Source of the DNA: a virus
DNA: 64,000 nt
Reading direction: 5' to 3' (one strand)
Virus record (IMG/VR): IMGVR_UViG_3300025133_000023
Under the pieces are notes generated by a model. It saw only the letters and a program-made list of their open reading frames with translations, was not told the DNA's origin and searched no databases. Shown here one piece after another: positions 1,629 through 7,749 of the stretch (position 1 is its first letter; each line of letters starts with the position of its first letter). The translations under genes and the position numbers were made by a program.

Positions 1629-2336
1629 TTGACTGGACCAAAGATTGCTCCTAGCAATAAGAACGAACGTACTCACATCATTTATATCCTTGACCGGTCT
1701 GGCTCTATGCTTTCCATTAAGGACGCAACCATTGAAGCATTCAATGAGTTCCTTTCAGGACAACAGTCAGAAGAAGGTGAAGTAACATTCACTCTTGTTC
1801 AGTTCGATGACCAATACGAAGTGGTATACGATGGCATTCCTTTGAGTGAAGTTGCTCCGCTTAACAACACAACCTTCATGCCACGTGGCATGACCGCTCT
1901 TCTTGATGCTCAGGGTAGAACCATCAACTCTACCCTGCAGGGAATCAAGACCATGCCTGCACACAAGCGACCAACAAAGGTTATTTGTGTTGTCCAAACA
2001 GATGGACACGAAAACTCTTCAAAGGAATTCAATCAGTTCCACGTCAACAAGATGGTCAAAGCTGCTGAAGAAGAGCACAAGTGGGAAATGATCTTCCTTG
2101 GCGCTACTGAAGATGCAATCTCAGTCGCCATCGATTATGGCTACGTTCCAACCAAGGCTCTCAAATGGTCAGCCAATGACCTAGGAGCAAGAGGAGCCAT
2201 GGCAAGCGCAAGCTCCTACATTACTCGTACACGCACAGCAACTCCTGATGAGGTCATGGCATTTACTGACCTTGAAAGAACACAGGCCGAGGGTGAAGTT
2301 GGAGCCCTAGACTCAACCATTGACCCCAACGAGTAA
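1629..2336 (+). CDS. standalone von Willebrand A domain protein
   Basis: ILDRSGSM MIDAS motif, GMTALLDA, TDGHEN. Confidence 0.85.
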   Translation: MTGPKIAPSNKNERTHIIYILDRSGSMLSIKDATIEAFNEFLSGQQSEEGEVTFTLVQFDDQYEVVYDGIPLSEVAPLNNTTFMPRGMTALLDAQGRTINSTLQGIKTMPAHKRPTKVICVVQTDGHENSSKEFNQFHVNKMVKAAEEEHKWEMIFLGATEDAISVAIDYGYVPTKALKWSANDLGARGAMASASSYITRTRTATPDEVMAFTDLERTQAEGEVGALDSTIDPNE

Positions 2337-2909: not shown

Positions 2910-3086
2910 GTTCAAGAGAACAGACAGCAAACTACCTTTACAGATAAGCAATTCACTGATAATGAATAGATAGTTGGTGCGAATCCAACCTTGGCCACCA
3001 TGATCTCTATAGGCAAGAGCCAGTTCGATTCTGGCAGAGGTATACTACGGCCAAGAAGCTAATTAAAAACAGTTCCCTGTTTGAGC
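2910..3086 (+). ncRNA. ACAGCAAAC-stem ncRNA 1 enclosing circularly permuted tRNA-Ile(GAT)
   Basis: Anticodon arm 2951-2967, T arm 2973-2989, CTTGGCC-A-CCA 2990-3000; complementary GGCCAAG at 3049-3055 lies downstream; terminal stems 2910-2921/3072-3086. Confidence 0.7.
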
Positions 3087-3130
3087 CCCTCATGCTTACC
3101 CTCCAAGCCAGGAGGATAGTATGGGGGCTC
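3083..3130 (+). other. long hairpin between ncRNA 1 and tRNA-Thr
   Basis: GAGCCCC..CATGCT..CCTCC/GGAGG..AGTATG..GGGGCTC. Confidence 0.4.
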
Positions 3131-3167
3131 TTCTTGTTTGCTCTAAAATTATTGTAATGGATACTCT

Positions 3168-3241
3168 GCCGGTATGGTGTAGTGGTAACACAGTTGTTTT
3201 GTAATCAACTACTGAAGGTTCGATTCCTTCTATCGGCACCA
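3168..3241 (+). tRNA. tRNA-Thr(TGT)
   Basis: GCCGGTA/TATCGGC acceptor, TT-TGT-AA loop, CCA. Confidence 0.92.
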
Positions 3242-3274
3242 TCAATATAATACAAACATTCGTTAAGGAAAACA

Positions 3275-3787
3275 TTGCGAACACAAACAGATCAAACTAG
3301 AATCAACCATCAAATTCGAGCACGTCAGGTAAGGCTCATCGATTCCACAGGCAACAACGTCGGAGTCATGGGAACCAGACAAGCACTAGAGCTAGCAAGA
3401 GACACTAGTCTCGACCTAGTAGAGGTTAACTCTAATGTTAATCCTCCCATCTGTAAGCTCATGGACTATGGAAAGTTCCAGTACGACAAGAAGAAGGCAG
3501 AGAAAGCTCGACCTAGAGCCATCTCCGTTAAGGAGGTAAAGCTTACTCCTCAAATGGGAGAGTCCGATCTTCAAGTCAGGCTTACCCGAGCCATTGAGTT
3601 CCTCACCAAGGGACACATAATTAGAGTTACAATGGAATTCAAAAAGGGATACCAGCGTAGGCAAGACCTTGGGGACGAGAAACTTGCCATGTTTGTAGAA
3701 GAACTAGATGGTATTGGTAACTGGGATGGCGATGCCAAGCCTAGTAAGCGAGGAGTAACATTCACGTTTACTCCTTGCTCTAAGTAA
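3275..3787 (+). CDS. infC: translation initiation factor IF3
   Basis: RINHQIRARQVRLID, LDLVEV, PPICKLMDYGKFQY, KEVKL..IF3 C-domain; TTG start. Confidence 0.95.
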   Translation: MRTQTDQTRINHQIRARQVRLIDSTGNNVGVMGTRQALELARDTSLDLVEVNSNVNPPICKLMDYGKFQYDKKKAEKARPRAISVKEVKLTPQMGESDLQVRLTRAIEFLTKGHIIRVTMEFKKGYQRRQDLGDEKLAMFVEELDGIGNWDGDAKPSKRGVTFTFTPCSK

Positions 3788-3794
3788 AAGAATT

Positions 3795-3816
3795 TGCTAA
3801 GTTTAAGAACTTAGCA
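3795..3816 (+). terminator. hairpin after infC
   Basis: TGCTAAGTT-TAAG-AACTTAGCA perfect 9 bp; no long U tract. Confidence 0.4.
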
Positions 3817-3818
3817 CT

Positions 3819-3941
3819 GAGTATTAAGGGTACTCACAGCAAACAATTTCACTCGCAAGAGTGTTGGGTTCGATTCCCAGTAAACCTGCCAAAATTAGGT
3901 TTAGCCAAAGGTGGCTATTAAATGTACCCTGACCAATACTC
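3819..3941 (+). ncRNA. ACAGCAAAC-stem ncRNA 2, permuted tRNA-like (YrlA-like topology)
   Basis: Variable-like arm 3850-3863, T arm 3864-3880, TAAACCT-G-CCA 3881-3891, AGGTTTA 3897-3903, D-like hairpin 3904-3915, terminal stems 3819-3833/3924-3941. Confidence 0.7.
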
Positions 3942-3959
3942 GACTAGATATGATGGCAT

Positions 3960-4044
3960 GCCGGGATGGCGGAATTGGTAGACGCGCTGGTTTTAGGAAC
4001 CAGTATCTTCGGGTGTGCAGGTTCAAGTCCTGTTCCCGGTACCA
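3960..4044 (+). tRNA. tRNA-Leu(TAG)
   Basis: Class II cloverleaf, CTGGT/ACCAG stem, TT-TAG-GA loop, CCA. Confidence 0.95.
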
Positions 4045-4119: not shown

Positions 4120-4362
4120 ATGTTATTGGTAAGCAACAACCAACCCAGCTTTAGACTAGAGACGCTCTTTTGCAAACCATTCGTAGTGCAGTCAGAAGAA
4201 AACAACGCTTGGTTTACCAATTCCTTTGTAAATGAAACTAACTGGGTAGGACTCGTATCGATGCGAGGACCACGTCGGACTGCCTTTAAGGATGGTGTCC
4301 TAAGACCTAACTATATACTCATTGTGTTCTTGCACGATAAAAAGTTGATACAAACTATATGA
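4120..4362 (+). CDS. small hypothetical protein, MLLVS N-terminus
   Basis: Only ORF in the gap; overlaps rIIA start (ATGA); ATG 4114 is an alternative start. Confidence 0.6.
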   Translation: MLLVSNNQPSFRLETLFCKPFVVQSEENNAWFTNSFVNETNWVGLVSMRGPRRTAFKDGVLRPNYILIVFLHDKKLIQTI

Positions 4363-7667: not shown

Positions 7668-7749
7668 ACTTCGTTCGTCTAACGGTTAGGACATAGGACA
7701 TTGGTTTTTCAAGCCAAGAATAGGGGTTCGATTCCCCTACGAAGGACCA
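7668..7749 (+). tRNA. tRNA-Glu(TTC) with 7-nt tandem duplication
   Basis: TT-TTC-AA loop, TAGGG T stem, CCA; TAGGACA repeated at 7687-7693 and 7694-7700. Confidence 0.8.

What the first reader, a model, noticed from the sequence alone, without database searches (positions are those of the whole stretch)
2910..3941. Shared terminal module (stem, bulge, stem, ACAGCAAAC/TTAAA loop) carrying different tRNA-derived cargo
Seen: both RNAs align at their ends, 5' GAGAAC-AG-ACAGCAAAC vs GGGTAC-TC-ACAGCAAAC and 3' GCTAATTAAAAACAGTTCCCTG vs GCTATTAAATGTACCCTG. The inner stem shows compensatory change (GAAC/GTTC vs GTAC/GTAC), and each has a 6-7-bp outer stem past a short 3' bulge. The interiors differ in permutation point (D-loop vs anticodon arm). 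Inference: a modular system in which a conserved RNA handle, probably bound by one protein or acting as a processing/ligation signal, displays interchangeable tRNA parts. This is the best candidate for an undescribed system.
Basis: partly seen in the sequence, partly recalled or inferred. Interest (0 to 1): 0.82.

Follow-up and report, generated by a model that had tools for sequence, protein, structure and literature searches.

The report
Partner RNAs of phage Ro60-like protein
The two RNAs are real members of a widespread phage family of small RNAs that share one conserved "handle" and carry different tRNA pieces; they are most likely the partner RNAs (Y-RNA equivalents) of a phage protein shaped like the RNA-surveillance protein Ro60, a pairing I found in neither Rfam nor the searched papers.

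Summary
Element A (2915-3079) and element B (3827-3931) share a 7-bp closing helix, a 2-nt linker, unpaired ACAGCAAAC, an A-rich return strand and a G after the helix. Their cargoes are different circularly permuted tRNA bodies.

The handle is a family. It occurs many times per phage in tRNA clusters, its helix covaries, and its cargo ranges from bare anticodon stem-loops to whole tRNA bodies.

This phage has no TROVE Ro60 and no RtcB. It does encode a 525-aa DUF2828/DUF7788 protein whose model matches Ro60 over its whole length (Z 21.6), and two handle RNAs sit in that gene's leader.

DUF2828 was present in 19 of 27 handle-bearing phage records and 0 of 13 controls. In 78 loci chosen by the protein alone, all 27 model hits flank the gene on its strand.

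Best reading: Y-RNA-like partners of a divergent Ro60. Some relatives score below threshold against Rfam YrlA. Binding and function are inferred, not shown.

The same stem-plus-ACAGCAA layout defines the unexplained Class I RNAs of Dictyostelium.

This scan has already reported the same system on other genomes. I found no paper or Rfam family describing it.

The parts
2915..3079 (+). Element A: handle RNA carrying a permuted tRNA-Ile(GAU)-like body
   Evidence: Read from the sequence. Rfam tRNA 29.1 bits on 2926-2997. It directly follows tRNA-Gly at 2834-2908.
2915..2921 (+). A: handle helix, 5' strand
   Evidence: Pairs with 3072-3078 in 6 of 7 positions, with an A.C mismatch at 2917/3076.
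2924..2932 (+). A: conserved unpaired motif ACAGCAAAC
   Evidence: Exact match. The CAGCAA core is invariant in 30 of 30 independent model hits.
2951..2967 (+). A: anticodon arm, 5-bp stem with loop CUGAUAA (GAU)
   Evidence: alignment to the Rfam tRNA model.
2973..2989 (+). A: T arm
2990..3000 (+). A: acceptor 3' strand, discriminator A, CCA
   Evidence: CTTGGCC pairs perfectly with 3049-3055.
3001..3048 (+). A: 48-nt insert closing the acceptor stem; holds a second T-arm-like hairpin at 3019-3035
3049..3055 (+). A: acceptor 5' strand; RNase P is predicted to cut on its 5' side
   Evidence: Pairing. Cleavage is inferred from M. smegmatis YrlA (PMC4201824).
3056..3071 (+). A: A-rich return strand of the handle's internal loop
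   Evidence: A-rich in the family consensus.
3072..3079 (+). A: handle helix 3' strand plus the conserved G
   Evidence: The G is invariant in the family.
3086..3135 (+). Hairpin followed by a T-rich run after A; a likely terminator
   Evidence: Read from the sequence. The simple terminator scan did not call it, so this is inferred.
3827..3931 (+). Element B: handle RNA carrying an anticodon-less, YrlA-like permuted tRNA mimic
   Evidence: Handle model R1: 29.7 bits, E 0.012 in 732 kb, E 2e-5 locally. Fold z -3.8. tRNA-Leu follows at 3960.
3827..3833 (+). B: handle helix, 5' strand
   Evidence: 7 of 7 pairs with 3924-3930.
3836..3844 (+). B: conserved unpaired motif ACAGCAAAC
3850..3863 (+). 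B: 5-bp hairpin capped by a GCAA tetraloop, in the variable-arm or anticodon-arm position
3864..3880 (+). B: T arm with loop TTCGATT
3881..3903 (+). B: closed acceptor hairpin: 3' strand, G-CCA, 5-nt linker, 5' strand
   Evidence: TAAACCT pairs with AGGTTTA.
3904..3915 (+). B: D-arm-like hairpin with GG in its loop
3916..3931 (+). B: A/U-rich return strand, handle helix 3' strand, conserved G
3818..3824 (+). B: outer stem, pairs with 3934-3940; not conserved in relatives
   Evidence: Flanks of relatives.

Best explanation
A and B are Y-RNA-like small RNAs.

The handle is a 7-bp closing helix, an internal loop with unpaired N-CAGCAA-A-Y on the 5' side and an A-rich 3' side, and a G after the helix. 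I propose it is the docking site for the phage's own Ro60-like ring protein. That protein is DUF2828 + DUF7788/vWA, 525 aa, encoded about 19-22 kb away on the same strand.

The variable part is a tRNA mimic. By analogy with Ro60/Y RNA particles, it would tether the ring to tRNA-binding host factors or to tRNA substrates, or gate the ring's cavity.

The RNAs are made from the tRNA-cluster transcripts. They are probably freed by the same RNase E and RNase P processing as the tRNAs. The closed acceptor hairpins contain N-CCA plus a short linker, so RNase P may open them to give two-piece, CCA-ended tRNA-like molecules still held together by the handle.

Shown here: the family, the covarying helix, the Ro60 fold of the protein, and genomic co-occurrence and adjacency.

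Inferred: physical binding, processing, and the biological role.
For: 1. The family is real.
- A pattern scan of viral contigs gave dozens of RNAs with the same handle and tRNA-like cargo.
- The descriptor gave 181 hits against 20 in reversed controls.
- Covariation was 60 and 65 double-sided cells, against about 18 in shuffles and at most 14 in slid controls. The second figure comes from an independent set.

2. This genome.
- No TROVE and no RtcB.
- One DUF2828 + DUF7788 protein with a weak vWA_Ro60 match.
- Two handle RNAs lie in its leader, the second ending at the ribosome-binding site.
- Two further copies lie just upstream of the window.

3. The protein has a Ro60 fold.
- AlphaFold model: pLDDT 88, pTM 0.86.
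- The top 12 listed Foldseek hits (ranks 1-13) are all Ro60/TROVE, full length, E 4e-8.
- VIA-align Z 21.6, rmsd 3.8 A over 412 residues to Xenopus Ro; vWA-only hits reach about Z 10.
- The MIDAS residues are invariant.

4. Linkage.
- DUF2828 is in 19 of 27 records with handle RNAs and 0 of 13 controls, p 1.7e-5.
- CAGCAA lies within 450 nt upstream of 15 of 20 genes.
- In 80 loci fetched by the protein alone, descriptor hits on the gene strand pile up just before the gene (36) and just after it (28), against about 3.7 per bin elsewhere.
- All 27 hits of model R1 in the 78 of these loci that were searched lie on the gene strand and flank the gene, p 7e-9.

5. Kinship with Y RNAs.
- Rfam YrlA hits five relatives at 26-46 bits, below the threshold of 69. 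Several of these matches span the whole model.
- CcrColossus has four tandem RNAs with their own common handle and different tRNA-like cargo, directly upstream of its TROVE gene.
Against: - No binding, expression or processing data exist. The link is genomic only.
- A and B lie about 19-22 kb from the protein gene.
- A is not detected by model R1 (7.9 bits). Its membership rests on the exact 9-mer, a 6-of-7 helix, the A-rich strand and the terminal G.
- The YrlA hallmark GNCGAA is absent.
- Sequence profiles link DUF2828 to a TROVE protein only at the MIDAS motif (70% probability).
- One complete 401-kb phage (locus L052) has a handle RNA but neither DUF2828 nor TROVE.
- 33 of 73 protein-chosen loci show no handle next to the gene by my strict descriptor.
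- No conserved effector gene accompanies the pair.
Confidence: 0.72

Rival explanations
1. The handle is only a processing and stability module of tRNA operons. A closing helix with flanking U-rich RNase E sites would punctuate and protect non-tRNA pieces of the transcript. No dedicated protein partner is involved.
For: The elements sit between tRNAs. The flanks are U-rich, and a G follows the helix, which resembles RNase E site preferences. The RNase E preference is from my own knowledge.
Against: This does not explain an invariant unpaired CAGCAA. It also does not explain strict co-occurrence and adjacency with DUF2828 genes that lie far from tRNA clusters.
Confidence: 0.1
2. A and B are circularly permuted or split tRNA genes that mature into working tRNAs. 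The handle would act like the bulge-helix-bulge junction of Cyanidioschyzon permuted tRNAs or Nanoarchaeum split tRNAs, either cut and ligated or left as a two-piece tRNA.
For: The 3' half with N-CCA precedes the 5' acceptor strand in both elements. A has a complete Ile(GAU) anticodon arm. Some relatives carry full bodies with proper anticodon loops.
Against: B and many relatives have no anticodon. Mini forms have no acceptor or T arm. The handle carries a conserved sequence that a splice junction would not need. RtcB is absent. Bacteria lack the splicing endonuclease (established knowledge). This reading gives no reason for the DUF2828 linkage.
Confidence: 0.08
3. The handle is mainly a cis-acting autoregulatory operator in the leader of the DUF2828 mRNA. 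The copies in the tRNA cluster would be decoys or fossils.
For: The leader copy nearest the gene ends at the ribosome-binding site in this phage. Many genes have a copy within 100 nt of the start codon.
Against: Most copies lie elsewhere: after the gene or in tRNA arrays, several per genome. They carry elaborate, conserved tRNA-like cargo. This reading is compatible with the main explanation rather than a replacement for it.
Confidence: 0.06
4. They are ordinary YrlA RNAs that serve a host-encoded TROVE Ro60.
For: They have the YrlA topology, and several relatives score below threshold against the Rfam YrlA model.
Against: GNCGAA is absent and a different motif replaces it. Neither A nor B hits YrlA even at E 10. 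Linkage is to DUF2828 and not to TROVE.
Confidence: 0.04

Closest known systems
Bacterial and phage Y RNAs of the YrlA type with Ro60/Rsr (Rfam RF02553; Chen et al. 2014, PMC4201824; phiLo Yrl1/Yrl2, PMC12135203)
   Same: - The 5' and 3' ends pair into a stem, bulge, stem module next to a conserved unpaired motif.
- The rest of the RNA is a tRNA mimic in the order V, T arm, closed acceptor, D arm. Element B follows this order.
- Several RNAs occur per genome, often directly upstream of the gene for a ring-shaped TROVE + vWA fold protein.
- Relatives of A and B score 26-46 bits against the YrlA model.
   Different: - The motif is N-CAGCAA-A-Y and not GNCGAA/CGAA.
- The second helix of the YrlA handle is missing.
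- The partner is DUF2828/DUF7788, which is not recognisable as TROVE by sequence.
- The cargo is far more varied: anticodon stem-loops alone, acceptor-less tRNA bodies, and full permuted tRNAs with encoded CCA.
- Most copies sit in tRNA clusters.
- All scores are below the Rfam threshold.
Class I RNAs of dictyostelid social amoebae (Aspegren 2004; Kjellin 2021, PMC7919456; search pattern in PMC5054030)
   Same: - A short covarying stem joins the 5' and 3' ends.
- A conserved unpaired motif lies directly 3' of the 5' stem strand. It contains ACAGCAA after a short pyrimidine linker.
- The interior is variable.
- The 3' stem strand is followed by (U)G.
- There are many gene copies, and the function is unknown.
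   Different: - They are eukaryotic, 42-65 nt, with their own upstream promoter element.
- No tRNA-like cargo has been described.
- The known binding protein is the RRM protein Rnp1A.
- I did not test whether amoebae encode DUF2828. That is an unverified lead from earlier notes of this scan.
Circularly permuted and split tRNA genes (Cyanidioschyzon merolae, Thermofilum, Nanoarchaeum)
   Same: The 3' half of the tRNA, ending in CCA, lies upstream of the 5' half. The transcript ends pair into a helix at the break point.
   Different: - Those mature through a bulge-helix-bulge junction cut by the splicing endonuclease and then ligated, giving a normal tRNA.
- Here the junction carries a conserved sequence and many cargoes cannot decode.
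- Neither that endonuclease nor RtcB is available.
Phage T4 species 1 and 2 stable RNAs (rnaC, rnaD)
   Same: They are small stable RNAs of unknown function, co-transcribed in a T4-type tRNA cluster. rnaC has a T arm.
   Different: They have no closing helix plus CAGCAA handle in the family's arrangement.

Membership tests
YrlA / Y RNA (Rfam RF02553) | Score at or above the Rfam gathering threshold (69 bits) | tested here: not met
   A and B have no YrlA hit even at E 10. Relatives reach 26-46 bits.
YrlA / Y RNA (Rfam RF02553) | GNCGAAN0-1G (CGAA) motif near the 5' end | tested here: not met
   The position is occupied by ACAGCAAAC. The motif definition comes from PMC4201824.
YrlA / Y RNA (Rfam RF02553) | Stem formed by the 5' and 3' ends, closing a tRNA-like domain in the order V, T, closed acceptor, D | tested here: met
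   B has this exact order. A has the T arm and closed acceptor, but its D-like and anticodon arms come before the T arm.
YrlA / Y RNA (Rfam RF02553) | Encoded within about 4 kb of a TROVE Ro60 gene on the same strand | tested here: not met
   There is no TROVE gene in the genome. The Ro60-fold DUF2828 gene is about 19-22 kb from A and B, though two sister copies lie in its leader.
CAGCAA-handle RNAs linked to DUF2828 (undescribed; defined here and in earlier notes of this scan) | About 7-bp covarying closing helix, 1-3 nt linker, N-CAGCAA-A-Y, A-rich return strand, G after the helix | tested here: met
   B: model R1 29.7 bits. A: all features present by inspection with one helix mismatch, but R1 gives only 7.9 bits because of the 140-nt cargo.
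CAGCAA-handle RNAs linked to DUF2828 (undescribed; defined here and in earlier notes of this scan) | Genome encodes a DUF2828/DUF7788 protein with a Ro60 fold | tested here: met
CAGCAA-handle RNAs linked to DUF2828 (undescribed; defined here and in earlier notes of this scan) | The RNA binds the protein | not testable with these tools
   Needs gel-shift assays or pull-down.
Permuted tRNA genes (C. merolae type) | 3' half, CCA, linker, 5' half in one transcript | tested here: met
   A: 2990-3000 and 3049-3055. B: 3881-3891 and 3897-3903.
Permuted tRNA genes (C. merolae type) | The product is a complete decoding tRNA | tested here: not met
   B has a GCAA tetraloop in place of an anticodon loop. 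Many relatives lack anticodon or acceptor parts. A alone has a full set of arms.
Permuted tRNA genes (C. merolae type) | Bulge-helix-bulge junction processed by the splicing endonuclease and a ligase | tested here: inconclusive
   The junction has a different, sequence-conserved architecture. RtcB is absent. The endonuclease was not searched for.
Dictyostelid Class I RNAs | Short terminal stem plus an 11-nt motif next to the 5' stem strand | tested here: inconclusive
   The published search pattern contains ACAGCAA in the same place, and the 3' stem strand is followed by TG. Only 7 of the 11 motif positions are shared. No Class I sequences were available to score.
Dictyostelid Class I RNAs | 42-65 nt, with the DUSE promoter, in Dictyostelia | tested here: not met
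   These are phage RNAs of 105 and 165 nt in a tRNA operon.

The most novel reading that the evidence does not exclude
The CAGCAA handle is the docking site of a second, sequence-unrecognisable branch of the Ro60 family (DUF2828). That branch would be shared by hundreds of phages and, through the same motif, by the Class I RNAs of social amoebae.

In phages the ring would carry two-piece, CCA-ended tRNA bodies and bare anticodon-loop mimics. These would survey or repair tRNAs, or decoy host enzymes that attack tRNAs.
Probability: 0.25. Interest if true: 0.9.

Novelty: new variant of a known kind. Interest (0 to 1): 0.74.

Why it matters
Ro60/Y RNA particles are conserved from bacteria to humans, yet the role of the tRNA-like half of bacterial Y RNAs is still unknown.

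A second branch of the system appears to be far more abundant in phages. More than 2500 protein homologs were found in metagenomes. Its handle is simple and easily recognised, and its cargo repertoire is very explicit: anticodon loops of particular identities, and whole tRNA bodies with CCA. Together these give a direct way to ask what the tRNA mimicry is for.

The result also gives a function-level hypothesis for the uncharacterised DUF2828/DUF7788 families. It explains many "odd tRNA-like" genes in phage tRNA clusters that tRNA finders miss or miscall. It offers a testable candidate partner for the Dictyostelium Class I RNAs, unexplained since 2004.

Tried and rejected
- **Rfam.** At gathering threshold and at E up to 10 over the region, only tRNA was found. 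No ribozyme, riboswitch, GOLLD/ROOL or tmRNA hit; ARAGORN found no tmRNA.
- **Close relatives among isolates.** The phages collection gave only tRNA matches.
- **Ro60 and RtcB.** TROVE (PF05731) and RtcB are absent from the genome.
- **Reading frame.** I considered that GCA-AAC in the motif might be a tmRNA-like resume codon. I rejected this because the frames run through T arms and have no tag-like ends.
- **Trans pairing.** No GUUUGCUGU partner exists in the window.
- **Other motifs.** K-turn, Hfq ARN and CsrA GGA readings do not fit the conserved positions.
- **T4 rnaC and rnaD.** They lack the handle in the family's arrangement.
- **Window genes.** The vWA gene at 1629-2336 is unrelated to DUF2828 and is not a conserved neighbour.
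- **Conserved neighbours of DUF2828.** None is general. The best cluster is in 23 of 80 loci and is unannotated; DnaJ and a metallopeptidase are sporadic.
- **Single-protein locus search.** It found nothing. An alignment was needed.
- **Sequence-only comparisons.** PDB by sequence gave nothing. Profile comparison with a TROVE protein gave only the MIDAS motif.
- **Model R1 on element A.** It cannot span A's cargo.
- **Literature.** Searches for DUF2828, permuted tRNA plus phage, and Ro60 plus phage found no description of this RNA family.
Full report
**1. What is in the window**

The region lies in a tRNA cluster of a 189.6-kb T4-like phage. The record is an IMG/VR entry estimated 100% complete; an rIIA-like gene follows at 4359. 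The cluster also holds IF3-like and vWA genes.

Element A spans 2915-3079 and directly follows tRNA-Gly. Element B spans 3827-3931 and precedes tRNA-Leu.

Both begin with a 7-nt helix strand, a 2-nt linker and the exact 9-mer ACAGCAAAC. Both end with an A-rich strand, the complementary helix strand and a G. The 9-mer occurs nowhere else in the window.

Between the handle strands:
- A carries a D-like arm, an Ile(GAU) anticodon arm and a T arm. Its acceptor stem has a 3' strand followed by A-CCA, and a 48-nt insert closes it.
- B carries a GCAA-capped hairpin, a T arm and a D-like hairpin. Its acceptor hairpin is closed by G-CCA plus 5 nt.

B folds much better than shuffled sequence (z -3.8). 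A does not (z -1.5).

Rfam offers only a borderline tRNA hit inside A and nothing else, even at E 10.

**2. The handle defines a family**

A third copy ends at window base 1. There the helix is formed by acceptor-like strands. A 59-nt mini copy lies 330 nt further upstream.

I scanned viral contigs for the 9-mer followed by a T-loop. This returned dozens of RNAs with the same architecture from unrelated contigs.

Within those loci the core CAGCAA recurs many times next to a closing helix of at least 7 bp. There were 181 such sites, against 20 in reversed-sequence controls. The sites often form arrays spaced 13-22 nt apart.

Helix sequences differ between copies but stay paired.
- In the seed alignment, 60 cells changed on both sides, against 18.5 in shuffles and at most 14 when partners were slid.
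- In an independent alignment of model hits the figure was 65, against 18.2.

The consensus from the independent hits is: a 7-bp helix, a U-rich linker, N-CAGCAA-A-Y, an A-rich return strand, and an invariant G after the helix.

The cargo is modular. It takes several forms:
- bare anticodon stem-loops with canonical loops (UUU, GUU, UGU, GCA);
- tRNA bodies in which the handle replaces the acceptor stem;
- YrlA-like permuted bodies with closed acceptor hairpins, of which at least nine of 28 in alignment A1 keep N-CCA (my reading);
- permuted bodies that also keep a full anticodon arm.

**3. The partner protein**

This genome has no TROVE domain and no RtcB.

The genome encodes one 525-aa protein with DUF2828 and DUF7788, plus a sub-threshold match to the Ro60 vWA domain.

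Its leader holds two handle RNAs behind a promoter-like site. The second ends at the ribosome-binding site.

With a 61-sequence alignment, AlphaFold gave pLDDT 88 and pTM 0.86.
- The top 12 listed Foldseek hits (ranks 1-13) in the PDB are Ro60/TROVE structures aligned over the full length. They include the Thermus phage phiLo protein.
- VIA-align gives Z 21.6 (rmsd 3.8 A, 412 residues) to Xenopus Ro, twice the score of vWA-only matches.
- The MIDAS residues are invariant.
- By sequence, only the MIDAS region links it to a bona fide phage TROVE protein.

This explains why the protein is not annotated as Ro60.

More than 2500 homologs exist in metagenomes, all unnamed. They are mostly viral.

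**4. Linkage between RNA and protein**

- DUF2828 is present in 19 of 27 records that hold handle RNAs. It is present in none of 13 records that matched my DNA pattern by chance (p 1.7e-5).
- Among records at least 90% complete, the handle model hits 7 of 10 DUF2828-positive genomes and 0 of 9 DUF2828-negative genomes.
- CAGCAA lies within 450 nt upstream of 15 of 20 genes. This includes genes 5-20 kb from the site that brought the record in.
- As a reverse test I fetched 80 loci by the protein alone. Descriptor hits on the gene strand pile up in the 500 nt before the gene (36) and just after it (28). Elsewhere the rate is about 3.7 per bin, and the opposite strand shows only a much weaker rise after the gene (10 hits in one bin).
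- All 27 hits of model R1 in the 78 of those loci that were searched lie on the gene strand and flank the gene.
- Bare CAGCAA next to the gene has a closing helix 56-69% of the time, against 22-29% elsewhere.

Exceptions exist:
- One complete 401-kb phage has a handle RNA but neither DUF2828 nor TROVE.
- 33 of 73 protein-chosen loci show no handle beside the gene by my strict descriptor. Those phages may keep their copies elsewhere.

**5. Relation to known systems**

This arrangement matches that of Ro60 with Y RNAs. In Chen et al. 2014, YrlA RNAs have a terminal stem with the motif GNCGAA and a tRNA-like domain in the order V, T, closed acceptor, D. They lie next to rsr, and M. smegmatis YrlA is cut by RNase P and receives CCA.

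Phage phiLo Ro60 binds two upstream Y-like RNAs described as stem, bulge with CGAA, stem.

Five relatives of A and B score 26-46 bits against Rfam YrlA, below the threshold of 69. In the full-length alignment, the family's helix falls on the helix that carries GNCGAA, and the CAGCAA strand replaces the next internal loop and helix.

Caulobacter phage CcrColossus shows the canonical counterpart of the modular idea. It has four tandem RNAs with their own common handle and different tRNA-like cargo, directly upstream of its TROVE gene.

I therefore file A and B as a new variant of the Ro60/Y RNA kind and not as YrlA members. The threshold, the motif and the TROVE neighbour all fail.

A second resemblance comes from the literature. 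The published search pattern for Dictyostelium Class I RNAs is a 6-nt stem strand, CTT, ACAGCAA, up to 120 nt, then the complementary strand followed by TG. Those RNAs are defined by a short covarying terminal stem, an adjacent unpaired 11-nt motif and a variable interior, and their function is unknown. The layout is the same. I could not test whether amoebae carry the protein.

**6. Mechanism**

Shown: the family, the fold, and the linkage.

Inferred:
- The handle docks on the DUF2828 ring, as the Y RNA stem docks on Ro60.
- The RNAs are released from tRNA-cluster transcripts.
- RNase P may open the closed acceptor hairpins, 5' of 3049 in A and 5' of 3897 in B. This would leave CCA-ended two-piece tRNA mimics held together by the handle.
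- The cargo recruits or decoys tRNA-binding factors.

No conserved effector gene travels with the pair. Any effector is probably host-encoded, as PNPase is for phiLo.

**7. Rivals**

- A pure processing or stability module does not explain the invariant motif or the DUF2828 linkage.
- Maturation into working tRNAs, as in algal permuted tRNA genes, fits A's anatomy. It does not fit B, the mini forms, or the conserved junction.
- A cis-regulatory operator is plausible for the leader copies, but it complements the main reading rather than replacing it.
- Ordinary YrlA serving a host Ro60 is contradicted by the motif and by the linkage.

**8. Status**

I found no paper on DUF2828 function or on this RNA family, and no Rfam family. 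Earlier reports of this scan describe the same system in many other genomes. My tests reach the same conclusion for this window.

Noticed in passing
Just upstream of the window: L003 about 1525-1457 (- strand), ending at window base 1; and L003:1786-1844 (- strand): Two more family members sit in the same tRNA cluster. One is a non-permuted copy with a UUCG hairpin, a T arm and G-CCA, whose closing helix is made of acceptor-like strands. The other is a 59-nt mini copy (model R1, 42 bits).
   Followed up: partly
G000:C1:173339-175141 (- strand) = L125:328-2130: The DUF2828/DUF7788 Ro60-fold gene has a promoter-like site and two handle RNAs in its leader. The proximal handle ends at the ribosome-binding site, which suggests autoregulation.
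   Followed up: partly
window 3275-3787: A complete IF3 (infC) homolog, with both the N and C domains, is encoded inside the phage tRNA cluster between elements A and B.
   Followed up: no
window 1629-2336 and 2387-2824: A stand-alone vWA-domain protein and a 145-aa protein with no Pfam match lie among the tRNA genes. The vWA protein is not related to DUF2828 by profile comparison.
   Followed up: partly
window 7677-7738: Partial tRNA-like match (Rfam tRNA 32.3 bits, model positions 10-63) just before tRNA-Val. ARAGORN does not call it.
   Followed up: no
L123:1340-1940 (Caulobacter phage CcrColossus, JX100810): Four tandem, unannotated YrlA-like RNAs lie directly upstream of the TROVE gene. 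They share a common handle and carry different tRNA-like cargo.
   Followed up: partly
L122:3054-3172 (- strand), phage T4 rnaD: T4 species 2 RNA carries ACAGCAGAAAC near its CCA end. This loosely resembles the motif but sits in a different structural position, so it is possibly chance.
   Followed up: no
L052 (IMGVR_UViG_3300028886_000028, 401 kb, complete): This record has a YrlA-like handle RNA with the exact 9-mer but no detectable DUF2828 or TROVE gene. It is an exception to the co-occurrence.
   Followed up: partly
L111 (- strand, positions 234-710 of its reverse complement), L030, L020, L039, L114: These loci hold arrays of three to six consecutive handle RNAs, with spacers of only 13-22 nt in L020, L030, L039 and L111. 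Several of the RNAs carry only an anticodon stem-loop (UUU, GUU, UGU, GCA).
   Followed up: partly
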